From an uncultured Clostridia bacterium (GTDB taxonomy: Bacteria; Bacillota; Clostridia; TANB77; CAG-508): 64,000 bases of DNA. Location of the stretch: positions 3,942 through 67,941 of the forward strand of contig CAKPGC010000006.1 in the NCBI GenBank assembly GCA_934154445.1. Direction: 5' to 3'. The notes under the pieces are model-generated. The model made no database searches. It was not told where the DNA came from and saw only the letters and a list, made by a program, of their open reading frames with translations. Positions 10,669 through 37,264 of the stretch are shown here, piece after piece. Both the position numbers and the translations under genes were made by a program. Position 1 is the first letter of the stretch. Each line of letters begins with the position of its first letter.

Positions 10669-11712
10669 ATGAATAAAATGACAGAAGAAAAGAAAAAAGG
10701 ATTAAGTATATTTTTAAGAATAGTTATAGCACTAATATTAATATTGGTAATAATATTTGGTTTTATATTTTTTTATGTAAAAGGAAAATTAGATAAAATA
10801 CAAACAATAGATTTACCAAAAGATGAAGATCTAGGAATTACAGAAACAGTATCTCAAAATTTAACAGGATATAGAAATATTGCAATATTTGGAGTGGATA
10901 GTAGATCAGATGACTATGGAGTTGGAAATAGAAGTGATTGTATAATAATAGCAAGTATAAACAATGATACAGGAGCAATCAAACTAATATCAGTATACAG
11001 AGATACTTATGTAAAAATTGATGGACATGGACTTGACAAAATAACACATGCATACTCTTATGGTGAAGCACCACTTGCAATAAAAACACTTAATACAAAT
11101 TTGGATTTAAACATAAACGAATTCGTAACAGTCAACTTCGATTCTGTAGCAGAAGCAGTTGACCAATTAGGAGGAGTACAATTAACAATTACATCTGATG
11201 AAATAAAATATATAAATGGATACATAGACGAAACATCAAAAGTAACAGGAAAAACTTCAAAACATATAACAGAACCTGGAACATATAATGTAGACGGAGT
11301 ACAAGCTGTTTCATATTCTAGAATTAGATACACAGATGGTGGGGATTATAAAAGAACTGAAAGAATGAGAACTGTAATAGAAGCAATGTTTACTAAATTA
11401 AAAACAAAAAATATAGCTGAAATAAATTCATTTGCAGATAAAGTGCTACCTCATGTATACACAAATATATCAGCAACAGATATTCTTTCAATGGTACCAA
11501 GTATGACAAAATATAAAGTTACAGAGAGCATTGGATGGCCATATAACACAAAAGGAAAAACAATGGACAGATGGTACGGAATTCCAATTACACTTGAATC
11601 AAATGTAAAACAATTACATCAAGAGGCATTCGGCAAAGAGGATTATGAACCATCAGATACTGTAAAAAACATAAGCCAGAGTATTATAAATAAAACAGGA
11701 TATACAAAATAA
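10669..11712 (+). CDS. LytR-CpsA-Psr (LCP) family protein
   Basis: N-terminal TM then NIAIFGVDSRSD...RSDCIIIASIN...ISVYRDTYV core. Confidence 0.85.
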   Translation: MNKMTEEKKKGLSIFLRIVIALILILVIIFGFIFFYVKGKLDKIQTIDLPKDEDLGITETVSQNLTGYRNIAIFGVDSRSDDYGVGNRSDCIIIASINNDTGAIKLISVYRDTYVKIDGHGLDKITHAYSYGEAPLAIKTLNTNLDLNINEFVTVNFDSVAEAVDQLGGVQLTITSDEIKYINGYIDETSKVTGKTSKHITEPGTYNVDGVQAVSYSRIRYTDGGDYKRTERMRTVIEAMFTKLKTKNIAEINSFADKVLPHVYTNISATDILSMVPSMTKYKVTESIGWPYNTKGKTMDRWYGIPITLESNVKQLHQEAFGKEDYEPSDTVKNISQSIINKTGYTK

Positions 11713-11784
11713 AAATGATTTGTAAAAGTTACTATAATGTGATGGTTATAGTAACTTTTAATATTTATTTAGGAGAAAATAAAA

Positions 11785-12267
11785 ATGAATTTAAAAATAC
11801 AGAGAATAATATTTGGAATTCTTACAGTAATAACATTTATAACAATATTTATATTTTCAAACCAGAATGGAGAAAAATCGGGATCTGTAAGCAGAGATTT
11901 TACAAAGAAAGTAATAGATATATTACATATAGACAAGAATTTGAACGAAATTGAAAAAGAAAATTTAATAGAAAATTCACAATTTATTGTAAGAAAATTA
12001 GCACATTTTACAATATATACCATTGCAGGAATAAATTTATACGAATTCATAAATACATATAACATAAAAAACAAATACAAAATGATAGGTGCATTATTGG
12101 TAGGAATTATTTATGCAACATCTGATGAAATTCATCAGATGTTTTCGGGAGGACGAACACCAGCTGTAATGGATGTATTTATAGATTCTTGTGGTGTTCT
12201 ATTTGGGATAAATATGTTTCTAATAACAAATAAAATTATTAAAAATAAAAAGCAAAAGTTGTATTAA
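11785..12267 (+). CDS. VanZ family membrane protein
   Basis: KLAHFTIY...SDEIHQMFSGGRTPAVMDVFIDSCG motif. Confidence 0.75.
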   Translation: MNLKIQRIIFGILTVITFITIFIFSNQNGEKSGSVSRDFTKKVIDILHIDKNLNEIEKENLIENSQFIVRKLAHFTIYTIAGINLYEFINTYNIKNKYKMIGALLVGIIYATSDEIHQMFSGGRTPAVMDVFIDSCGVLFGINMFLITNKIIKNKKQKLY

Positions 12268-12294
12268 TAATTGGTGAAATTTACTTGAAATATA

Positions 12295-12323
12295 TTGACA
12301 AAAAAAGACAAGATTTTTATAAT
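12295..12323 (+). promoter_or_regulatory. candidate distal promoter of the EPS operon
   Basis: TTGACA, 17-nt spacer, TATAAT (perfect consensus hexamers). Confidence 0.5.
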
Positions 12324-12361
12324 ATAAATGAAATTAATTTTATGAAAATGGGGATATAAAC

Positions 12362-12412
12362 ATGATAAGACAGCAAAACGTTGCAGGGGTACACACACAC
12401 ACACACAGGTAA
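12362..12412 (+). other. candidate 16-codon leader ORF (MIRQQNVAGVHTHTHR) containing the (AC)8 tract
   Basis: GGGGA 7 nt upstream of ATG; stop TAA at 12410-12412; coding status unproven. Confidence 0.25.
12391..12407. repeat. (AC)8 dinucleotide microsatellite
   Basis: acacacacacacacaca read directly; unusual in this AT-rich context. Confidence 0.95.
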
Positions 12413-12544
12413 TTCTAAAAAATAATATAAATTCTATAATATATAATAGGATAGGGGTATTATGCGTTTTTAAAATGCAAAATAATATTGCTATCTTTTT
12501 GGAGTTTATAAATTTGTAAATTTGTCAATTTTTGATGAAAAAAC

Positions 12545-12573
12545 TTGAAAACATATATCAGTTATTGTATAAT
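12545..12573 (+). promoter_or_regulatory. candidate proximal promoter of the EPS operon
   Basis: TTGAAA, 17-nt spacer, TATAAT preceded by TG. Confidence 0.45.
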
Positions 12574-12630
12574 TAAATATGGGAATGAACTTATAATTTA
12601 AAATAGGTTTTATAGGGGGATTGAAAAGTT

Positions 12631-13350
12631 ATGAGAGTTATAAAAGATTATAACTTTGCTAATGAACAGGCTATTAATGAAAGAGTAGTAGAAGATAATG
12701 TTACTATTGATAATAAAAAGGTAAGAATAAATATAGAAAAAGGAATAAAAAGATTAGTAGACATTATTGCAGGATTAGTTGGAACGATATTACTAATTCC
12801 AATTACAATATGCATATACATAGCAAAAAAAATATTAAAAGAAGATGATGGACCAATATTTTATGAACAACTAAGGATAGGAAAAGATGGAAAGCATTTT
12901 AAATTGTATAAATACAGATCTATGATAATAGGTGCAGATGAAATATTAAAAGAATATTTATCAGAAAATGAAGAAGCAAGAATTGAATTTGAAAAAAATC
13001 AAAAGTTAAAAAATGATCCTAGAATAACTAGATTAGGAAATTTTTTAAGAAAAACAAGCTTAGATGAATTTCCACAATTTATAAATATTCTAAAAGGTGA
13101 TATGAGTTTAGTTGGGCCTAGACCAATTGTTGATAGGGAAATAGAATTATTTGGAGATAAAATGAAAATAGTACATAGTGTTAGACCGGGTCTTACTGGA
13201 TATTGGGCAGCTAATGGAAGAAGTGATACAACTTATGAACAAAGAGTAGAAATGGAAGCATATTACGCTGAAAACTTCTCATTACTTTTAGATATAAAAA
13301 TTATATTAAAAACAATAAAATCAGTAATAAAAAAAGAAGGAGCAATATAA
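12631..13350 (+). CDS. undecaprenyl-phosphate sugar phosphotransferase (initiating bacterial sugar transferase)
   Basis: One TM then DGPIFYEQLRIGKDGKHFKLYKYRSM...DEFPQFINILKGDMSLVGPRP. Confidence 0.85.
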   Translation: MRVIKDYNFANEQAINERVVEDNVTIDNKKVRINIEKGIKRLVDIIAGLVGTILLIPITICIYIAKKILKEDDGPIFYEQLRIGKDGKHFKLYKYRSMIIGADEILKEYLSENEEARIEFEKNQKLKNDPRITRLGNFLRKTSLDEFPQFINILKGDMSLVGPRPIVDREIELFGDKMKIVHSVRPGLTGYWAANGRSDTTYEQRVEMEAYYAENFSLLLDIKIILKTIKSVIKKEGAI

Positions 13351-13354
13351 GAGA

Positions 13355-14203
13355 ATGAATATTGATATTATATGCCCGTTATACAATGCAGAGAAAGATA
13401 TAGAGGGACTTCATAAATCGTTATTAAAACAAAAAAATGTAAAAATAAATGAAATAAAGTATGTTTTAACAGAAAGCAAAGATAATACTGAAGAAAAACT
13501 AAAAGAATTAAATATGAATTTTAAAAAAATAAAGAAAGAAGAATTTTCACATGGTCTTACTAGAGAAAATGAAGCTTTTGATAGTAAGGCTGATATTCTT
13601 GTGTTTATTACTCAAGATGTAAAAATAGTAAGAGATGATTGGCTATACAATTTAACAAAAGACATAGCTAATGGAGAAGTGGATGCTTGTTATAGTAGAC
13701 AAATATGCACTAATAACACAATTGAAAAATATACAAGAGAATGCAATTATCCAAAAAATTCAAAAATAGTGACTAAAGACGATGTTGAAAAATTAGGCTT
13801 AAAAGCATTTTTCTTTTCAGATGCTTCATCTGCAATAAAAAGAGAAACGTTTGTTAAACTAAATGGATATGATCATAAAAAATTAATTATTAATGAAGAT
13901 ATGTATATTGCGTATAAATTGATAACTAATGGATATAAAATAAAATATTGTGCAGATTCAGAAGTCATTCATTCACATGTCTTTACATTAAAACAATATT
14001 ATGATAGATATAAAGATACAGGAAAGTTTTTTAAAGAAAACAGTTATTTAAATAATTATAAAGTAAATCAAGCAGGCGGAAATATGGCTAAATATGTTTT
14101 AAAAAGAGCATGGCAAGATAAAAATTGGAGCGTTTTGATAAGATTTGTTCCTAATATGGCTGCTAGATTTATTGGAATGAAAGTTGGAAGAGTTACTAAA
14201 TAA
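13355..14203 (+). CDS. glycosyltransferase family 2
   Basis: N-terminal IICPLYNAEKDI GT-A start, FITQD and NEDM acidic motifs. Confidence 0.7.
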   Translation: MNIDIICPLYNAEKDIEGLHKSLLKQKNVKINEIKYVLTESKDNTEEKLKELNMNFKKIKKEEFSHGLTRENEAFDSKADILVFITQDVKIVRDDWLYNLTKDIANGEVDACYSRQICTNNTIEKYTRECNYPKNSKIVTKDDVEKLGLKAFFFSDASSAIKRETFVKLNGYDHKKLIINEDMYIAYKLITNGYKIKYCADSEVIHSHVFTLKQYYDRYKDTGKFFKENSYLNNYKVNQAGGNMAKYVLKRAWQDKNWSVLIRFVPNMAARFIGMKVGRVTK

Positions 14204-30204: not shown

Positions 30205-33200
30205 ATGTACAAAAAAGTAGAATTAAAAGACGGATTTGTAGGAATGGAAAGAGAAGTTGCAGAGAATTGGAAGAAAAAAAATATTATTAAGAAGAATTTT
30301 GATATGAATAAAGGTAAAAGATATTTTACCTTTTATGATGGACCACCAACAGCAAATGGAAAACCACATGTTGGACACATCGAAACAAGAGTTATGAAAG
30401 ATATAATTCCAAGATATAAAGTAATGAAAGGATATCAAGTTATTAGAAAGGCTGGATGGGATACACATGGACTACCAGTTGAACTTGAAATTGAGAAAAA
30501 ACTTGGTATTTCTGGAAAACAACAAATTGAGGAATATGGTGTAGAAAAATTTGTTAAAGAATGTAAAGAAAGTGTTTTCACGTATGTTCAGATGTGGGAA
30601 GAAATGACAAACAAAGTTGGATATTGGGTTGATATGGAACATCCGTATGTAACATACCACAATGACTACATTGAATCTGTATGGTGGGCTTTAAGTGAAT
30701 TATGGAAAAAAGGACTTTTATATGAAGGACATAAAGTAATGCCATATTGTCCAAGATGTGGAACAGCATTATCTTCACATGAAGTAGCACAAGGTTATAA
30801 AGACGTTAAAGATTTAACTTGCATTGCCAAATTTAAAGTTTTAGATAAAGAAAATACATATATCTTAGCTTGGACAACAACTCCATGGACATTACCTTCA
30901 AACTTAGCATTATGTGTAAATAAATCATATACATATTCAGAAGTAAAAGCAAATATAGGAACAGATGATGAACCAAAATATGAAAATTATATATTAGCAA
31001 AGGATTTAATTGAAACAGTTTTAAAAGAAACACCTTATGAAATAGTAAAAGAATTTAAAGGAGAAGAACTATTAGGAACAAAATATGAACAATTAATGCC
31101 TTATGCTAAAGTTGATGGAAAAGCATTTGAAGTAATCCATGGTGATTATGTAACACTAACAGATGGTACTGGAATTGTACATATTGCACCAGCTTATGGT
31201 GAAGATGACAGTTTAGTTGCTAAACAAAATGGAATTGCATTTGTGAATTTAGTAGACAAAACAGGAAAATTTGTACCAGAAGTAGAACCATGGGCAGGTA
31301 GATTTGTTAGAGACTGTAACGAAGAGATTTGTAAATGGTTAGCAGATGAAAATAAATTATTCAGCAAAGAAAAACATTTACACTCATATCCACATTGTTG
31401 GAGATGTGATACACCACTTCTTTATTATCCAAAAGAAAGTTGGTTTGTAGCTATGAGTAAGTTAAGAGACGAACTAGTAGCAAATAACAACAAAGTAAAT
31501 TGGTATCCTGATACAATTAGAACAGGAAGATTTGGAAAATTCCTAGAAAATGTAATTGACTGGGGAATTTCAAGAGATAGATATTGGGGAACACCTCTTC
31601 CAATTTGGACTTGTGAGGATGAAAATTGTGGTCATCAAGAATGTATAGGAAGTATTGCAGAATTAAAAGAAAAAGCAATAGACTGTCCAGAAGATATAGA
31701 ATTACACAAGCCATATATTGATAATGTACATTTAAAATGCCCTAAATGTGGCAAAAAGATGACAAGAGCAAAAGAAGTAATAGATTGCTGGTTTGATTCA
31801 GGATCAATGCCTTTTGCACAATTGCATTACCCATTTGAGAATAAAGAGTTATTCGAAGAAAACTTCCCAGCACAATTTATTTCAGAAGCAATTGATCAAA
31901 CAAGAGGATGGTTCTATACTTTAACAGCTTTAGGAACAGCTCTATTTGGAAGAACACCATTCGAAAACTGTATAGTTTTAGGACACGTTTTAGATTCAAA
32001 AGGTCAAAAAATGTCTAAATCAAAAGGAAATGGTGTAGACCCAATGTTGCTATTAAATGAAGTTGGAGCAGATGCAACAAGATGGCATTTCTATACATGT
32101 AGTGCACCATGGTTACCAACAAGATTAGGATTGGAAAATGTACAAGAAACACAAAGAGGATTTTTAAGCACATTATGGAATATATACTCATTCTATGTTC
32201 TATATGCAGAAATAGACAAATTCAACCCATTAAATTATACAGATTTTAAAGTTACAAATGTAATGGATAAATGGATAATATCTAAGTTAAATACTTTAAT
32301 AAAAGAAGTAGATGAAAAACTAGATAAATATGATATAACATCAGCAGCACTTCAAATAGAAGCTTTCACAGATGAACTATCAAATTGGTATGTACGTAGA
32401 AATAGAGAAAGATTTTGGAGCCAAGAATTAACAGATGATAAGATAGGAGCTTATGTAACACTACACGAAGTATTGGTAAAACTTGCAAAAATATCAGCAC
32501 CATTTATACCTTTTATGGCAGATGAAATTTATCAAAACTTAGTAGTAGGACTAGATAACACAGCACCAGAAAGTGTTCATTTATGTACATGGCCAGAATA
32601 TAATGCTTCAGCCGTTGACAAAAAATTAGAACAAGAAATGGATTTAGCATACACAATAGTAAAACTAGGAAGAAGCGCAAGAAACTCTGTAAATATCAAA
32701 AACAGACAACCATTATCAGAAATGTTAATATCAATAGATACTTTACCTGAATATTATGAAGATATAGTAAAAGAAGAGTTGAATGTTAAAAAGGTAGAAC
32801 TAGGAGCAGAAATGTCTGACTACGTAAACTTTGAAATCAAGCCAAATTTACCAGTTTTAGGAAAAGAATATGGAAAATTGATTCCTAGAATAAAAGAAGA
32901 AATAGCTAAGAAAAATCAAATGGATTTGGCAAATACTGTAAAAAATGGCGGAGTAGAATACATTGAAATAGATGACATACAAATAGGATTAAATTCAGAA
33001 AATTTACTTATAACAATGAACGGAAAAGAAGGATTTGCATTTGCAGGTGAGGGTGAAATAGGTGTTGTATTAGATACACATATTACACAAGAACTAAAAG
33101 AAGAAGGATATGTAAGAGAAATATTATCAAAAGTTCAAAATATGAGAAAAGACAAAGGATTTGAAGTACTAGATAAAATTAATCTTTATGTATCTGGAAA

Positions 33201-33482: not shown

Positions 33483-34034
33483 ATGGAAGAAGAAGTTGTA
33501 GAAAAGAAAAGATTAAATGAAAATCAAAAAACTGTATTATACTTTTTCATCTATTCATTTTTGGGATGGATATTAGAAACAATATTTTGCTTAGTAACAT
33601 TAGGTGTATTTACCAAAAGAGGTTTTTTATATGGACCAGTATGCCCAATGTATGGATTTGCAGCAGTTGGAATGATTCAATTATTAAAAAATGTAAAGAC
33701 CAATACACTTGGAAAATTTGGAATTTGTATGATTGTTTTTACAGTATTTGAATATATTGTAGCAGTTTTATTAGAAAGCTTATTTGGATTAAGATGGTGG
33801 GATTATTCAAATGAGGTACTAAATTTTCAAGGAAGAGTAAGTTTACCATATTCAATTGCATGGGGAATTGTAGGCGTAATATTTGTAGATAAAATACATC
33901 CTACTGTAAAAAGAAAAACTCAAAAAATTGAAGAGCAAATTCCAAATAAAATATTAGTTGCCTTTATGTATACATCAATTGCTATAATATTAATTGATTT
34001 TATTGCATCAATAATAAAATATGCTAATTTGTAG
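33483..34034 (+). CDS. polytopic membrane protein (putative ABC-transporter type IV / CmpB-like family)
   Basis: GFLYGPVCPMYGFAAV and RWWDYS motifs, 4-5 TM. Confidence 0.55.
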   Translation: MEEEVVEKKRLNENQKTVLYFFIYSFLGWILETIFCLVTLGVFTKRGFLYGPVCPMYGFAAVGMIQLLKNVKTNTLGKFGICMIVFTVFEYIVAVLLESLFGLRWWDYSNEVLNFQGRVSLPYSIAWGIVGVIFVDKIHPTVKRKTQKIEEQIPNKILVAFMYTSIAIILIDFIASIIKYANL

Positions 34035-34052
34035 TAAAAGCAAGAGGAATAT

Positions 34053-34128
34053 GCCAATATAGCTCAGTTGGTAGAGCAACGGATTCGTAACCCGTAGGTC
34101 AGCAGTTCGATTCTGCTTATTGGCTCCA
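34053..34128 (+). tRNA. tRNA-Thr (anticodon CGU)
   Basis: Hand-folded cloverleaf: acceptor GCCAATA/TATTGGC, D arm GCTC/GAGC, anticodon loop TTCGTAA, T arm AGCAG-TTCGATT-CTGCT, encoded CCA; one A-C mismatch closes the anticodon stem. Confidence 0.85.
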
Positions 34129-34131
34129 AAA
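34118..34131 (+). repeat. direct repeat copy 1 (TATTGGCTCCAAAA, tRNA-Thr 3' end), att-like
   Basis: Identical 14-mer recurs at 36321-36334; CTGCT also precedes both copies (3-nt indel in copy 2). Confidence 0.8.
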
Positions 34132-34200
34132 TGCATTTTCGTCGAACTACTTAAAAATATTGATAGCATTTGTAAATTCTAAAAATATAAATATGTGTTT

Positions 34201-34242
34201 ATAAAGCTATAACGAGCTGATTGAGTGTTCAATCAGCTCGTT
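34201..34242 (-). terminator. terminator of islet gene A
   Basis: Perfect 14-bp stem AACGAGCTGATTGA / TCAATCAGCTCGTT with a 4-nt loop. Confidence 0.65.
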
Positions 34243-34259
34243 AATACTTTGCAATTGTA

Positions 34260-34811
34260 TCAGAACGGTCTTAAGAGGTCCAAAAGCTTAAACAGCATGA
34301 AATCTCTTCCTTTATTCCAAAATTCAATGCAAAAATCCTGTACGTCTTCGCCATAAAATTTCAGTTCAGGATACAAGAATTCTTTCGGCATTCCCTCCAT
34401 CTTGATAAAATACAACCTCGGGTCAGCCAGGTAATACCATCTGAACCATTTAGCAAATGAGAGCAATTTCTTATCGCAGAAATCATGATCTTTCACATGA
34501 ACAGATACTTCCCAACACATTTCATCATCCCAGTTATTATATGAGAAAAAGACGATAGTAAAGAAGTTATTATCTATTACATACTTAGGTTTTCTCGTAC
34601 TATGGTCTTTTAAAACCATAGGAAATGGTATAGATGTTTTGAACTGTGTGCGCTGGTTGTAGAACATCGGATAAATGACGTTTTGCAGGAAATCCTGCTC
34701 CTGATAAGAAACATACTGATGATGTTCTTCGGAGTTTTTGAACTGCTGTGTTGCAACCCAATCATAGTATTCCATGATGCTCAGTGGACTTTCTTTCTTC
34801 TTCCGAGACAT
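34260..34811 (-). CDS. islet orphan protein A, 183 aa, aromatic-rich, no domain recognised
   Basis: AAGGAGGT RBS 8 nt before ATG; own promoter and terminator; no TM or signal peptide. Confidence 0.75.
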   Translation of the reverse strand: MSRKKKESPLSIMEYYDWVATQQFKNSEEHHQYVSYQEQDFLQNVIYPMFYNQRTQFKTSIPFPMVLKDHSTRKPKYVIDNNFFTIVFFSYNNWDDEMCWEVSVHVKDHDFCDKKLLSFAKWFRWYYLADPRLYFIKMEGMPKEFLYPELKFYGEDVQDFCIEFWNKGRDFMLFKLLDLLRPF

Positions 34812-34834
34812 ACTTGCTTACCTCCTTGAATTTT

Positions 34835-34857
34835 CTTGGAGGTCAGAAACCTCCAAG
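34835..34857 (-). promoter_or_regulatory. 5' UTR hairpin with decoy SD / anti-SD arms upstream of gene A
   Basis: mRNA CUUGGAGGU-UUCUG-ACCUCCAAG lies 7 nt upstream of the true SD AAGGAGGU. Confidence 0.4.
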
Positions 34858-34896
34858 TTGTGTGGCTTATTGGTTTCTAAACAATGCTACATTTAT

Positions 34897-34925
34897 ATTT
34901 TATTATAATTTACATAAAATGTCAA
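34897..34925 (-). promoter_or_regulatory. candidate promoter of islet gene A
   Basis: On minus strand: TTGACA, 17-nt spacer, TAAAAT. Confidence 0.45.
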
Positions 34926-34981
34926 TTTTTTTCTGAAATTACTTTCTTTTTTATTCATTTGGCAAAAATAAAGCATTATTA

Positions 34982-35010
34982 TTGAAAAATTATGTAAAAC
35001 ATGATAATAT
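34982..35010 (+). promoter_or_regulatory. candidate promoter of islet gene B
   Basis: TTGAAA, 17-nt spacer, TG-n-TAATAT; back-to-back with the gene A promoter. Confidence 0.45.
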
Positions 35011-35137
35011 ATTATAAAATATAGCAAATTGCTGTGTTATTATCTTTTTTCACTAAATAGTGAGAGAAAATATTTCTCTGGCTTTTAGTTTTACATATAG
35101 TAAGTTATCAACAACAAAGCATTAAGGAGGAAAAAAT

Positions 35138-36052
35138 ATGCTTGAAAAAATTCTAACCAAAATGACTAAAGTTGTATATCCTAAACGGGATATAAATGTA
35201 GAAAAAATTGGAGGTCGATTCTTTCTTCATCCACATGATACAACTGGTTGCAACAACTATCTACTAGAAGGAACATACTCGTATGATGAAGTTGTGAAGT
35301 TGAATGATTTGACAACTTATTGTGCAGGTTTTGGATTTTGTTCAGAACTGGGACCAATTGCTTTTATAGGAATTCCTAATTCTGTATGTGCACAGAGCAG
35401 TGGATATTTCGAATATAAAGTGCATGCATACGGAACCCCTTCCGATAGGAGCGAGTACTATTTCAAAGCATACACTGAGGAGGTAGCAAAGAATATCAAG
35501 AATTATACTGTGTATGGTTTAGACGGACTCAGAGAAGTTGCAAAAGTAGCTCCTATAAGCCAGATATCCTATGTCTATGATTCTAGATTTAAGGCTAAAA
35601 CAGCTAAAAATCCAAGAATATTTGATATGGACTGTAAGTTGAAAGGAGTTTATAGTTACAATCAAGCTAAACTACTTTCAACTGGAACTCTCAAAGAAAA
35701 AGATGGTTATTCAGGAGAAGAACACCCTATTGCTTTTGCAGTTGTAGGAAATGGCCAGCATGTAGGAATTATTAACATTGCGGCTTCTGAAAAACTGGTA
35801 CGTGGTTTTAGAGATGTTTGGGAATATGGTGCTGAAGAGCCTGAAACTCAAACAATTAGCTTTCTTACTAAAGAGGAAGCATCTAAAATCAAAGATTTTA
35901 CATTGTATGTCTATATGAATGCTTGTTCAGGAATAGGTAGAGACAAATATCCAATCGAAAAACAGGATAGAACTCTTGATAAGAGATTCAAATTCCAGTT
36001 AGCTGATGGAAGTGATTATCGTCTAATCGAGCATACAGAATTGTTCAAGTAA
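35138..36052 (+). CDS. islet orphan protein B, 304 aa, internally duplicated ~130-aa domain, no family recognised
   Basis: AAGGAGG RBS 7 nt before ATG; two halves share G-x-YSY, x22-23, PIAF, x38-43, T-x-EE-x-x-K-IK-x-[YF]T-x-Y. Confidence 0.75.
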   Translation: MLEKILTKMTKVVYPKRDINVEKIGGRFFLHPHDTTGCNNYLLEGTYSYDEVVKLNDLTTYCAGFGFCSELGPIAFIGIPNSVCAQSSGYFEYKVHAYGTPSDRSEYYFKAYTEEVAKNIKNYTVYGLDGLREVAKVAPISQISYVYDSRFKAKTAKNPRIFDMDCKLKGVYSYNQAKLLSTGTLKEKDGYSGEEHPIAFAVVGNGQHVGIINIAASEKLVRGFRDVWEYGAEEPETQTISFLTKEEASKIKDFTLYVYMNACSGIGRDKYPIEKQDRTLDKRFKFQLADGSDYRLIEHTELFK

Positions 36053-36063
36053 TTAAAAATGAG

Positions 36064-36100
36064 TGGGTTGCAAATATAGAATGCAATCCATTTGTTTTTT
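36064..36100 (+). terminator. terminator of islet gene B
   Basis: TGGGTTGCA / TGCAATCCA 9-bp stem (one G-U pair) followed by TTTGTTTTTT. Confidence 0.65.
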
Positions 36101-36320
36101 CAATTATAAATAATTTTAATATAGAAAAAGCATATAAAATTTATGAAGAAAATTGTTAGTGAATATAACACAATTACAAAAGAGGAATTTGTATTTAATA
36201 ACGATTCTTATTATTAAGATATTGATAATTTATAAAAAATATGTTAAAGTAGATACAATAGATCAAGTTATATAAGAGAGCTTGAAACAGAGTATGTATT
36301 TTTTTCGCATACCTGCTCCA

Positions 36321-36334
36321 TATTGGCTCCAAAA
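36321..36334 (+). repeat. direct repeat copy 2 (TATTGGCTCCAAAA), att-like
   Basis: Identical to 34118-34131; sits 25 nt upstream of the ftsY start. Confidence 0.8.
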
Positions 36335-36358
36335 ACAATATGATTAAGGAGGAAAACA

Positions 36359-37264
36359 ATGGGATTTTTTGACAAATTAAAAACAGGACTAAACAAAACC
36401 AAAATATCATTCGATGAAAAAATAAATGATGTATTTAGTAACTTTAGAAAAGTTGACGAGGAATTTTTAGACGAACTAGAAGAAGTATTAATAATGTCAG
36501 ACATAGGAATGGAAACATCAATAAAAATAATATCAAGTTTAAGAGAAAGAATAAAAAAAGAGAATATAAAAGATGAAGAAGATGTAAAACAAGTACTAAG
36601 AGAAGAAATGCAAAAAATATTAGATATAACAGACATTAACTTACATTTAAATACAAAACCATCTGTAATCCTTGTTGTGGGAGTAAATGGAGTTGGAAAA
36701 ACAACATCAATAGGAAAAATGGCAAATAGATTAGCTAAGGATGGTAAAAAAGTTGTAGTGGCAGCAGCTGACACATTCAGAGCAGCAGCAGTTGAACAAT
36801 TAGAAATATGGGCAAAAAGAGCAGGTGCAGATATTGTAAAGAGAGAAGAGGGAGTTGACCCTGCATCAGTTGTATTTGATGCCATTAAAAAGACAAAAGA
36901 AAATGGAGCAGACATATTAATAGTTGATACAGCAGGAAGACTTCACAACAAAAAGTACCTAATGGATGAATTAAATAAAATACAAAAGGTAATAAACAAA
37001 GAAATGCCAGATTCAGATAAAGAAGTATTGCTAGTTATAGATGGAACAACAGGACAAAATGCTATACAACAAGTAAAAGCATTCAAACAAGAAGCGGATA
37101 TTACTGGAATAGTACTCACTAAGTTGGATGGTACTGCCAAAGGTGGAGTGGTTGTTGGAATAGTTGAAGAAAATAAAATTCCTGTAAAATTCATTGGAGT
37201 TGGAGAACAAATAGACGATATGGAAATATTTAATTCGGAAGAATTTGTAAAAGCAATAATTTAA
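36359..37264 (+). CDS. ftsY: signal recognition particle receptor FtsY
   Basis: GVNGVGKTTSIGK, DTAGR, TKLDGTAKGG SRP-GTPase motifs. Confidence 0.9.
   Translation: MGFFDKLKTGLNKTKISFDEKINDVFSNFRKVDEEFLDELEEVLIMSDIGMETSIKIISSLRERIKKENIKDEEDVKQVLREEMQKILDITDINLHLNTKPSVILVVGVNGVGKTTSIGKMANRLAKDGKKVVVAAADTFRAAAVEQLEIWAKRAGADIVKREEGVDPASVVFDAIKKTKENGADILIVDTAGRLHNKKYLMDELNKIQKVINKEMPDSDKEVLLVIDGTTGQNAIQQVKAFKQEADITGIVLTKLDGTAKGGVVVGIVEENKIPVKFIGVGEQIDDMEIFNSEEFVKAII

What the first reader, a model, noticed from the sequence alone, without database searches (positions are those of the whole stretch)
34053..36334. Integrase-less 2.2 kb islet at tRNA-Thr(CGU) carrying two divergent orphan genes: candidate novel two-gene system
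The last 11 nt of tRNA-Thr plus 3 downstream nt (TATTGGCTCCAAAA, 34118-34131) recur exactly at 36321-36334. In both copies the repeat is preceded by CTGCT, with a 3-nt indel in the second. This is the classic attL/attR signature of integration into a tRNA 3' end. Without the insert, ftsY would start ~25 nt after the tRNA. The enclosed genes are richer in G+C by hand count: 200/540 over 34261-34800 and 192/540 over 35161-35700, against 165/540 for ftsY 36361-36900. The EPS genes look lower still. The islet genes also use the CGG Arg codon, which native genes avoid. Each gene has a perfect AAGGAGG RBS, a good promoter and its own GC-containing terminator. They are transcribed back-to-back from a ~325-bp control region. 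Neither protein (183 aa, aromatic-rich; 304 aa, internally duplicated) matches any family I recognise. No integrase, transposase or relaxase is present. A compact, horizontally acquired, autonomously expressed gene pair at a tRNA hotspot fits defence, toxin-immunity or other conflict systems mobilised in trans. The function is unknown.
Basis: partly seen in the sequence, partly recalled or inferred. Interest (0 to 1): 0.8.

Follow-up and report, generated by a model that had tools for sequence, protein, structure and literature searches.

The report
Recombinase-less mini mobile element at tRNA-Thr
The 2.2-kb insert after tRNA-Thr is a stripped-down, recombinase-less copy of a common gut-Clostridia mobilizable element, and its two unknown-function genes are independent cargo rather than a paired system.

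Summary
tRNA-Thr(CGU) lies at 34053-34128. An exact 14-nt repeat sits at 34118-34131 and 36321-36334. Between the copies are two divergent orphan genes of foreign composition and no recombinase. An empty allele in the same species has one repeat copy and ftsY 27 nt after the tRNA, so this is a precise 2,203-bp insertion.

The two genes are not a system. A and B homologs never co-occur outside this species (about 38 B contexts, 8 A contexts). Each gene is its own promoter-to-terminator cassette.

The islet termini (34129-34165 and 36215-36331) match the conserved ends of an abundant element. Its layout is left end, orf109, large serine recombinase, MobV relaxase, orf97, cargo, right end. It inserts at the terminal GCTCCA of tRNA-Gly, tRNA-Thr and tRNA-Cys genes. 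A and B each occur as cargo in such elements.

The window copy lacks the recombinase/relaxase module. It keeps a 25-codon scar of a deleted cargo gene. It is therefore a CIME-like mini derivative, one of many.

The functions of A and B remain unknown. Both give confident AlphaFold models with no family or fold match. Serine-recombinase action at these ends, and mobilisation in trans, are inferred and not shown.

The parts
34053..34128 (+). tRNA-Thr(CGU), intact. Its terminal GCTCCA (34123-34128) is the insertion target and attL core.
   Evidence: ARAGORN and Rfam. The tRNA and its flanks match the empty allele L032 at 99.6% over 232 bp.
34118..34131 (+). Left copy of the exact 14-nt direct repeat TATTGGCTCCAAAA
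34129..34165 (+). Conserved left end of the element family, (A/T)AATGCRTTTTCGTCGAAC.... This is the putative P' half-site of the recombination site.
   Evidence: nhmmer hit at 34123-34165, E 1.8e-12. The same motif directly follows a tRNA or a module GCTCCA in 95 of 120 metagenome loci.
34173..34938 (-). Cargo cassette A. Stem-loop at 34211-34242, CDS 34260-34811 (183 aa, aromatic-rich orphan), RBS, promoter at 34897-34925.
   Evidence: 92% nt identity over 34173-34938 to the cargo slot of element L140. 71-75% identity to L007-L012. Promoter. AF2 pLDDT 88 with no fold match.
34964..36133 (+). Cargo cassette B. Promoter at 34982-35010, CDS 35138-36052 (304 aa, tandem-duplicated orphan domain), terminator hairpin at 36065-36100.
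   Evidence: 90-92% nt identity over 34964-36133 to L036, L037 and L038, starting right after their orf97. AF2 pLDDT 92.5 with no fold match. Duplication.
36140..36214 (+). Deletion scar: the last 25 codons of the 541-aa cargo gene that precedes the right end in full-length element L037
   Evidence: tblastn 80% identity to residues 514-538, E 4.5e-6. Window 36133-36331 is collinear with L037 13498-13712.
36215..36331 (+). Conserved right end of the element family. It contains an outward-facing promoter (TTGATA-17-TG-TAAAGT, 36222-36250) and the putative P half-site ...TTTTTTCGCATACCTGCTCCATATTGGCTCCA, ending in the attR core GCTCCA (36326-36331).
   Evidence: nhmmer E 2e-30. Alignment of 28 unique right ends. 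Promoter scan.
36321..36334 (+). Right copy of the 14-nt direct repeat
36359..37264 (+). ftsY, the native gene displaced 2.2 kb from the tRNA by the insertion. It now lies about 100 nt downstream of the element's outward promoter.
   Evidence: Pfam SRP54 domains. Empty allele L032.

Best explanation
The islet is a non-autonomous, internally deleted derivative of an integrative mobilizable element (IME). In the field's terms it is a CIME-like 'mini-IME'.

The parent family is abundant in uncultured gut Clostridia. Its layout is: left end, orf109, large serine recombinase, MobV (Mob_Pre) relaxase, orf97, variable cargo, right end. It inserts immediately after the terminal GCTCCA of tRNA-Gly(UCC), tRNA-Thr(CGU/GGU) and tRNA-Cys genes. 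Insertion leaves the tRNA intact, and newer elements stack on the tRNA side of older ones.

The window copy keeps both termini and two cargo cassettes, A and B. It has lost orf109, the recombinase, the relaxase and orf97. It has also lost the cargo distal to B, apart from a 25-codon scar.

A and B are unrelated, separately promoted cargo genes of unknown function, not a functional pair.

Inferred, not shown:
- The serine recombinase cuts at the CCA|N junction.
- The mini copy could still be excised or moved by a full-length relative supplied in trans or in cis.
- The outward promoter in the right end now drives ftsY.
For: **1. Precise insertion.**
- Empty alleles exist in the same species (L032, L029, L034, L035) with one repeat copy.

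**2. Both termini are family ends.**
- The left-end and right-end profiles hit the window at 34123-34165 and 36215-36331. They also hit many elements at tRNA-Gly and tRNA-Thr sites in other species.

**3. Survey with the left-end motif (capped sample).**
- 95 of 120 metagenome loci are family members.
- 57 of 90 abut a tRNA 3' end: Gly-UCC 25, Thr-CGU 18, Thr-GGU 11, Cys 2, Gly-CCC 1. The other 33 abut another module ending in GCTCCA.
- orf109, the serine recombinase, MobV and orf97 follow at fixed offsets of +130, +575, +2680 and +4100.
- 22 elements have both ends: 8 are full length (5.1-9.9 kb) and 14 lack an intact recombinase (1.4-6.0 kb).

**4. Gene identities.**
- Pfam gives Resolvase + Recombinase + Zn_ribbon_recom for the recombinase and Mob_Pre for the relaxase.
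- The smallest complete element (L167, 5.1 kb) holds only those four genes, so the serine recombinase is the only candidate integrase.

**5. A and B are cargo.**
- B follows orf97 in L037, L073 and L083.
- A follows orf97 in L140, next to an Abi_2 gene.
- An A homolog also sits in a different serine-recombinase + Mob_Pre element inserted in aroA.

**6. Deletion scars.**
- Window 36133-36331 joins L037 position 10999 to 13498. It retains the last 25 codons of orf541.
- L065 and L066 have the left end fused to the middle of B. L036 and L042 carry recombinase and relaxase fragments.

**7. Accretion.**
- In L001 an EamA module with its own GCTCCA-terminated end sits between the tRNA and the A-B islet.
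- L102 versus L155 shows the same pattern.

**8. Symmetry of the recombination site.**
- The reconstructed attP has its best dyad symmetry centred on the CCA|T junction: 8.8 of 20 positions against about 4-5 at other offsets.

**9. Full-length-type allele in this species.**
- A full-length-type left end sits at this same tRNA in the same species (L017).
Against: - No experiment or sequence of an excised circle links the serine recombinase to these ends. The link is association plus modest dyad symmetry. A second offset, +5, scores nearly as high (8.1 against 8.8 of 20).
- The window's right half-site (CCATATTGGCTCCA) differs from the majority consensus (CGAAATCGCTCCA) at 4 of 13 positions. Only about 37 bp of the left end remain. 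The copy may therefore be dead.
- The 14-nt perfect repeat is longer than the 6-bp core seen at tRNA-Gly sites. It needs a side explanation, either resemblance of the element arm to tRNA-Thr or gene conversion.
- No recombinase gene lies in the 64-kb window.
- Published serine-recombinase IMEs mostly integrate inside genes rather than at tRNA ends (PMC5704250, PMC5357655).
- The only test I could make for movement of a mini copy (L102 versus L155) turned out to be the same locus.
Confidence: 0.8

Rival explanations
1. One reading: A and B form a novel two-gene conflict system (defence, toxin-immunity or similar) that travels as a unit.
For: - The two genes are back to back with strong promoters and foreign composition, inside a mobile islet.
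- The cargo slots of related elements do hold conflict-type genes: Abi_2, PemK/MazF-like, OLD-like TOPRIM and the YhcG nuclease.
- Elsewhere A or B sits back to back with another cassette: A with Abi_2 in L140, B with a PemK-like gene in L003.
Against: - A and B do not co-occur in about 38 B contexts or 8 A contexts outside this species.
- They are separate DNA cassettes with different GC3, 45% against 24%.
- Neither protein hits PADLOC.
- The L027 strain has lost B's promoter and start codon while keeping A.
Confidence: 0.05
2. The islet is a remnant of a tyrosine-integrase genomic island or prophage that integrated into the tRNA 3' end and lost its integrase.
For: - The 14-nt direct repeat of the tRNA 3' end is typical of such islands.
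- The tRNA is preserved.
Against: - Both termini match a family whose complete members carry only a serine recombinase. No Phage_integrase gene was seen in any full-length copy.
- At tRNA-Gly sites the repeat shrinks to GCTCCA.
- There is no match in viral contigs.
Confidence: 0.05
3. A and B are old resident genes of this lineage, and the 'empty' strains arose by deletion between the 14-nt repeats.
For: - Homologs of A or B sit between tRNA-Thr and ftsY in other species (L011, L038, L046, L058).
Against: - GC3 is 1.5-3 times the native level.
- The termini are mobile-element ends shared with tRNA-Gly sites in other species.
- The contents of this site differ completely between species, and four allele types exist within this species.
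- B at 86-88% protein identity (about 91% nt) occurs at tRNA-Gly in another species, L037.
Confidence: 0.04
4. The mini element is an active, trans-mobilised parasite of the full-length IME (analogous to a MITE), not just in-situ decay.
For: - 14 of 22 two-ended copies lack the recombinase yet keep both ends well conserved.
- A full-length-type element uses the same tRNA in the same species (L017).
- Empty and filled alleles coexist.
Against: - No identical mini copy was found at two different sites. The one candidate pair was the same locus.
- The window's half-sites deviate from the consensus.
- No oriT region is retained, so transfer between cells would need accretion with a full-length element.
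Confidence: 0.3

Closest known systems
[quoted passage not shown]
   Same: - It is flanked by both element ends.
- It has no recombinase or relaxase.
- It derives from a larger element by deletion.
- It is found in tandem accretion with another module at the same target (L001).
   Different: - Classical CIMEs derive from tyrosine-integrase ICEs (fda and tRNA-Lys sites in streptococci). Here the parent encodes a serine recombinase and the shared core is only about 6 bp.
- Cis-mobilisation was not tested here.
MOBV IMEs with a large serine recombinase, of the Tn4451/Tn4453 type (PMC5704250, PMC12084326)
   Same: - The parent family has the same two-module design: one large serine recombinase plus a Mob_Pre/MobV relaxase.
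- It has short flanking repeats and small size (5-10 kb).
- Its hosts are Clostridia.
   Different: - According to PMC5704250, Tn4451-type and streptococcal serine-recombinase IMEs insert within genes or at low-specificity sites. This family inserts non-disruptively at the CCA end of tRNA genes and stacks in arrays.
- The recombinase is only 24% identical to that of the aroA-inserted relative seen here.
Dehalococcoides ssrA genomic islands (PMC3146451)
   Same: - Serine-recombinase (CcrB-like) islands integrate at the 3' end of a small stable RNA gene.
- They form tandem arrays bounded by direct repeats.
- Some members lack the integration module and were proposed to be CIMEs.
   Different: - The target there is tmRNA with a 20-bp repeat.
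- They have a six-gene integration module with two recombinases.
- The phylum and the cargo (reductive dehalogenases) differ.
Tyrosine-integrase tRNA islands (classical attL/attR at tRNA 3' ends)
   Same: - They sit at a tRNA 3' end, with a direct repeat and a preserved tRNA.
   Different: - No tyrosine recombinase was seen in any family member.
- The conserved core is 6 bp, and the imperfect dyad is centred on the junction.

Membership tests
CIME (cis-mobilizable element) | Bounded by attL and attR of a site-specific element | tested here: met
   Left-end and right-end profiles hit 34123-34165 and 36215-36331. The empty allele has one core copy.
CIME (cis-mobilizable element) | Lacks integration and transfer genes | tested here: met
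   The only ORFs of any size are A and B. tblastn finds no recombinase or relaxase in the window.
CIME (cis-mobilizable element) | Derived from an ICE or IME by deletion | tested here: met
   The islet is collinear with L037 and L140 except for two deletions. A 25-codon scar of orf541 remains.
CIME (cis-mobilizable element) | Can be excised or transferred together with, or by, a functional relative | not testable with these tools
   Evidence is circumstantial only: accretion in L001, and a full-length-type end at the same tRNA in L017.
Autonomous IME | Encodes its own integrase, and a relaxase or oriT | tested here: not met
   Neither is present in the islet.
Serine-recombinase/MobV IME family (parent, e.g. 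L037) | Large serine recombinase (Resolvase + Recombinase + Zn ribbon) and a Mob_Pre relaxase between conserved ends | tested here: met
   This applies to the parent only. Pfam gives E 8e-34, 1e-22 and 2e-3 for the recombinase domains and 4.5e-13 for Mob_Pre. Fixed gene offsets recur across loci, with an intact recombinase in 22.
Serine-recombinase/MobV IME family (parent, e.g. L037) | Recombinase acts at the conserved ends, with the crossover at the core | tested here: inconclusive
   It is the only recombinase in the minimal 5.1-kb element. The best dyad symmetry is centred on CCA|T, but the signal is modest and offset +5 scores nearly as high. No circle junction or assay is available.
Tyrosine-integrase tRNA island | Phage_integrase-family gene in the element or in its full-length relatives | tested here: not met
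   None was found in the window or in the full-length relatives examined.
Two-gene defence or toxin-antitoxin system | Both genes co-occur and are co-inherited across genomes | tested here: not met
   0 of 33 species loci with B carry A. 0 of 8 A contexts carry B.
Two-gene defence or toxin-antitoxin system | Similarity to known defence or TA components | tested here: not met
   No hits in PADLOC, Pfam, PHROGs or NCBIfam. Foldseek against PDB finds nothing for either protein, and against BFVD (run for A only) nothing.
Integron-like cassette array | IntI integrase and attC-type cassette sites | tested here: not met
   No IntI is present. Modules are bounded by GCTCCA-terminated ends of several unrelated families, not by attC hairpins.

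The most novel reading that the evidence does not exclude
Two readings are not excluded by the evidence.

1. The parent is an undescribed class of serine-recombinase IME that uses the universal ...GCTCCA-3' terminus of tRNA genes as its attachment core. It builds cassette-like arrays there. Its recombinase-less minis, such as this islet, would be actively moved in trans, as an 'IME/mini-IME' pair analogous to IS/MITE.
2. A and B are new-fold, single-gene conflict proteins (defence or anti-defence) distributed by this platform.
Probability: 0.2. Interest if true: 0.6.

Novelty: new member of a known kind. Interest (0 to 1): 0.35.

Why it matters
- **Annotation.** It shows how a tidy 'integrase-less islet with tRNA direct repeats and two orphan genes' can be misread as a new defence system. 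The pair is an accident of cargo shuffling and deletion.
- **Element family.** It exposes an abundant, apparently undescribed family of small serine-recombinase/MobV elements in uncultured gut Clostridia. They insert at the CCA end of tRNA-Gly, tRNA-Thr and tRNA-Cys genes, stack in arrays and decay into many mini copies. This could help in delimiting strain-variable regions in gut metagenomes.
- **Orphan proteins.** It flags two narrow orphan protein families that give confident structure models with no detectable fold relatives. Both are carried as cargo.
- **Tolerated insertion.** The conserved outward promoter at the element's right end may explain how insertion directly upstream of ftsY is tolerated.

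Tried and rejected
**Searches for the function of A and B (all negative)**
- Pfam, NCBIfam, PADLOC and PHROGs found nothing for either protein.
- PDB profile searches found nothing.
- Foldseek of two confident AF2 models against PDB gave a best E of 2.3 for B and 0.32 for A.
- Foldseek of A against BFVD gave a best E of 0.14.
- A profile search of B against 1.84 billion representatives found only 70 close family members.
- A profile search of A found 63 unnamed proteins.
- Neither family occurs in viral contigs.

**Leads that did not hold up**
- Rare B fusions to HD and DnaJ domains are single cases and too weak to build on.
- Rfam finds only the tRNA in 33900-36500.
- I looked for a structured RNA in the conserved right end. 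The apparent GTATG/CATAC stem does not covary across 28 copies, so I read the region as a promoter plus a recombinase half-site.
- I tested whether a mini element had moved, using L102 and L155 (99.9% identical). They share the right flank, so they are the same locus with a later insertion on the tRNA side.
- I considered a tyrosine-integrase origin, an integron-like array and a toxin-antitoxin pair. I rejected them (see the membership tests).
- The 1-mismatch copy of the repeat at 32413-32426 inside ileS is a chance match.
Full report
**1. Observation**

ARAGORN and Rfam place one tRNA in the window, tRNA-Thr(CGT) at 34053-34128. TATTGGCTCCAAAA occurs exactly twice, at 34118-34131 and 36321-36334. 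The two copies are 2,203 bp apart.

Between them lie gene A (34260-34811, minus strand, 183 aa) and gene B (35138-36052, plus strand, 304 aa). Their composition is foreign. GC3 is 45% for A and 24% for B, against 14-17% in ileS, cmpB, ftsY and the UPF0182 gene. CGN arginine codons are nearly confined to A and B, and CGG occurs only there.

Both genes have AAGGAGG ribosome-binding sites and good promoter matches. Hairpins follow both genes, but neither passes the strict terminator scan. B is an internal tandem duplication of a domain of about 125 aa. No library recognises either protein.

**2. It is an insertion**

I looked up the exact FtsY and CmpB proteins of the window in public assemblies. 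This returned contigs of the same species.
- L032 reads cmpB, tRNA-Thr, then 27 nt later the ftsY start codon, with a single copy of the repeat.
- L029, L034 and L035 are also empty.
- Other contigs of the species carry the A-B islet at 99.5-100% identity: L016/L026, L028, L030.
- L001 and L021 carry the A-B islet preceded by an extra 1.2-kb module with an EamA transporter gene.
- L017 carries a different element end at the same tRNA.

The site is therefore polymorphic within the species, with at least four allele types.

**3. The two genes are not a pair**

B has 125 homologs and A has 47, all unnamed and almost all from gut metagenomes.
- A scan of one genome per species found B in 33 species of uncultured Clostridia and a few Bacilli/Mycoplasmatota MAGs.
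- None of those loci has an A homolog within 10 kb, by tblastn or by profile search.
- Eight independent A contexts have no B.
- At the DNA level the window splits into an A cassette and a B cassette. The A cassette (34173-34938) is 92% identical to L140. The B cassette (34964-36133) is 90-92% identical to L036-L038. Each carries its own promoter and terminator.
- One strain (L027) has a 201-bp deletion that removes B's promoter and start codon and leaves A intact.

**4. What the ends are**

Sixteen of 35 B loci have a tRNA within 4.5 kb upstream. Ten are tRNA-Gly(UCC) and three are tRNA-Thr(CGU).

The 37 bp after the window's tRNA recur directly after tRNA-Gly or tRNA-Thr in other species: AAATGCATTTTCGTCGAACTACTTAAAAATATTG. 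The 117 bp before the second repeat also recur at the far end of the same islands, ending ...TTTTTTCGCATACCTGCTCCATATTGGCTCCA. Between such ends L037 carries these genes:

| Gene in L037 | Identity |
|---|---|
| orf109 | unknown |
| 626-aa protein | large serine recombinase (Resolvase + Recombinase + Zn ribbon) |
| 448-aa protein | Mob_Pre relaxase |
| orf97 | unknown |
| B | homolog of window gene B |
| KilA-N gene | KilA-N domain protein |
| 541-aa gene | unknown |

I then scanned metagenome contigs for the left-end motif.
- 95 loci are family members.
- Of 90 with enough upstream sequence, 57 abut a tRNA 3' end: Gly-UCC 25, Thr-CGU 18, Thr-GGU 11, Cys 2, Gly-CCC 1. The other 33 abut another module that also ends in GCTCCA.
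- orf109, the recombinase, MobV and orf97 follow at fixed offsets.
- Of 22 elements with both ends, 8 are complete (5.1-9.9 kb) and 14 lack an intact recombinase (1.4-6.0 kb).
- The smallest complete element (L167, 5.1 kb) has only the four core genes. The serine recombinase is therefore the only candidate integrase.

At tRNA-Gly sites the identity between the two junctions shrinks to GCTCCA. The 14-nt repeat in the window is therefore this core plus flanking bases that happen to agree. The element arm consensus ATAATGGCTCCA resembles the tRNA-Thr end TTATTGGCTCCA, and both the left end and the native flank begin with A-runs.

The reconstructed junction of right and left ends shows its best imperfect dyad symmetry centred on CCA|T. 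This is as expected for a serine-recombinase site, but the signal is modest and a second offset, +5, scores nearly as high (8.1 against 8.8 of 20).

**5. How the window copy arose**

B sits in the cargo slot after orf97 in L037, L073 and L083. A sits there in L140, next to an Abi_2 gene. An A homolog is also carried by an unrelated serine-recombinase/Mob_Pre element inserted in aroA.

Relative to these elements, the window copy lacks everything between the left end and the cargo. It also lacks the KilA-N gene and most of the 541-aa gene. Window 36140-36214 still encodes the last 25 residues of that gene.

Comparable decay stages exist elsewhere:
- L036 and L042 carry recombinase and relaxase fragments.
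- L065 and L066 have the left end fused to the middle of B.

New modules enter on the tRNA side of old ones, as in L001 against the window and L102 against L155. This matches the published definition of a CIME and of tandem accretion (PMC5704250). It also resembles the serine-recombinase islands at ssrA in Dehalococcoides (PMC3146451). Published serine-recombinase IMEs are described as integrating inside genes. The tRNA-end specificity of the parent family appears unusual, as far as I could check. One further search found no description of it, and another query was rejected for syntax.

**6. Right-end promoter**

All 28 distinct right ends conserve TTG-N17-TATGTTAAAGT reading outward. In the window this promoter is at 36222-36250.
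- In a circular form it would read into orf109 and the recombinase gene.
- In the integrated state in the window it points at ftsY. In the empty allele ftsY has no room for its own promoter between the tRNA and its ribosome-binding site.
- This role is an inference.

**7. Function of A and B**

AlphaFold gives confident models: B has pLDDT 92.5 and A has 88.1, both with pTM 0.86.
- Foldseek finds nothing in PDB for either protein, and nothing in BFVD for A.
- Both families are small and confined to this group of bacteria.
- Neither protein is strongly charged (pI 6.2 and 7.0). No signal peptide or membrane segment is apparent in the sequences, though none was predicted formally.
- Cargo of sister elements is mixed. 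It includes Abi_2, a PemK-like toxin, OLD-like TOPRIM, the YhcG nuclease, KilA-N and Bro-N. It also includes ArgRS and TyrRS paralogs, an ABC transporter and a hydrolase.

Association with the cargo slot therefore does not fix a function. My best guess is that each gene is an independent accessory or conflict gene. I put that at roughly 0.3-0.4.

**8. Verdict**

The 'two-gene system' reading is not supported. The islet is a new member of a known kind: a decayed, att-flanked mobilizable element. Its parent family has an uncommon target choice.

Noticed in passing
L001:3774-4984 (same species as the window); also L021, L059, L066: A second module family sits between tRNA-Thr and the A-B islet. 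It carries an EamA transporter gene. Its left end is a terminator hairpin, TTTGAAATCAACTTACGGAC...GTTCGTAGGTTTTT. Its right end is ...GAGCGTTGTAGTTCGTAAGCTGTAGCTTAACCGCTCCA. At least three further right-end types also end in GCTCCA (e.g. ...ATAACTACGACRYTCGCTCCA, ...ACGTGTATAGTTAAGGCTCCA, ...ATGACCCATGTCATTGCTCCA). Several element families may therefore share this tRNA-end core.
   Followed up: partly
L027:6789-6799 (window 34947-35147 absent): One strain of the same species carries a 201-bp deletion. It removes B's promoter, RBS and start codon and leaves A intact. This suggests B is dispensable.
   Followed up: partly
window 36222-36250 (+): A conserved outward-facing extended -10 promoter lies in the element's right end and points at ftsY. 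It is conserved in 28 distinct right ends from many species.
   Followed up: partly
L145 (+1442..+3124 from the left end); L124 (+547..+1711): Some family members carry aminoacyl-tRNA synthetase paralogs between their ends. One is a full ArgRS. Another is a split TyrRS.
   Followed up: partly
P0176 (514 aa), P0186 (384 aa): There are rare fusions of the B-family domain pair. One has a C-terminal HD phosphohydrolase domain and one has an N-terminal DnaJ J-domain. In L005, L044 and L045, B also lies two genes downstream of an HD protein and an ITPase-type NTPase. These are single observations and could be gene-calling artefacts.
   Followed up: no
L190:5149-16060, L191: An A homolog (44% identity) lies inside a different element that splits an EPSP synthase (aroA) gene. 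That element carries an HTH protein, a Mob_Pre relaxase, A, DUF6076, a protein kinase and a 548-aa serine recombinase.
   Followed up: no
L011/L012, L038, L046, L058: The tRNA-Thr/ftsY gap is a hot spot in several related species, with different contents in each. L046 has B plus membrane proteins. L011 has A plus a sigma-70 region-4 protein and others. L058 has a frameshifted B.
   Followed up: partly
window 36268-36915 (-) and 32015-32680 (-): Long antisense ORFs lie inside ftsY (215 aa) and ileS. They are artefacts of the 26% GC composition, not genes.
   Followed up: no
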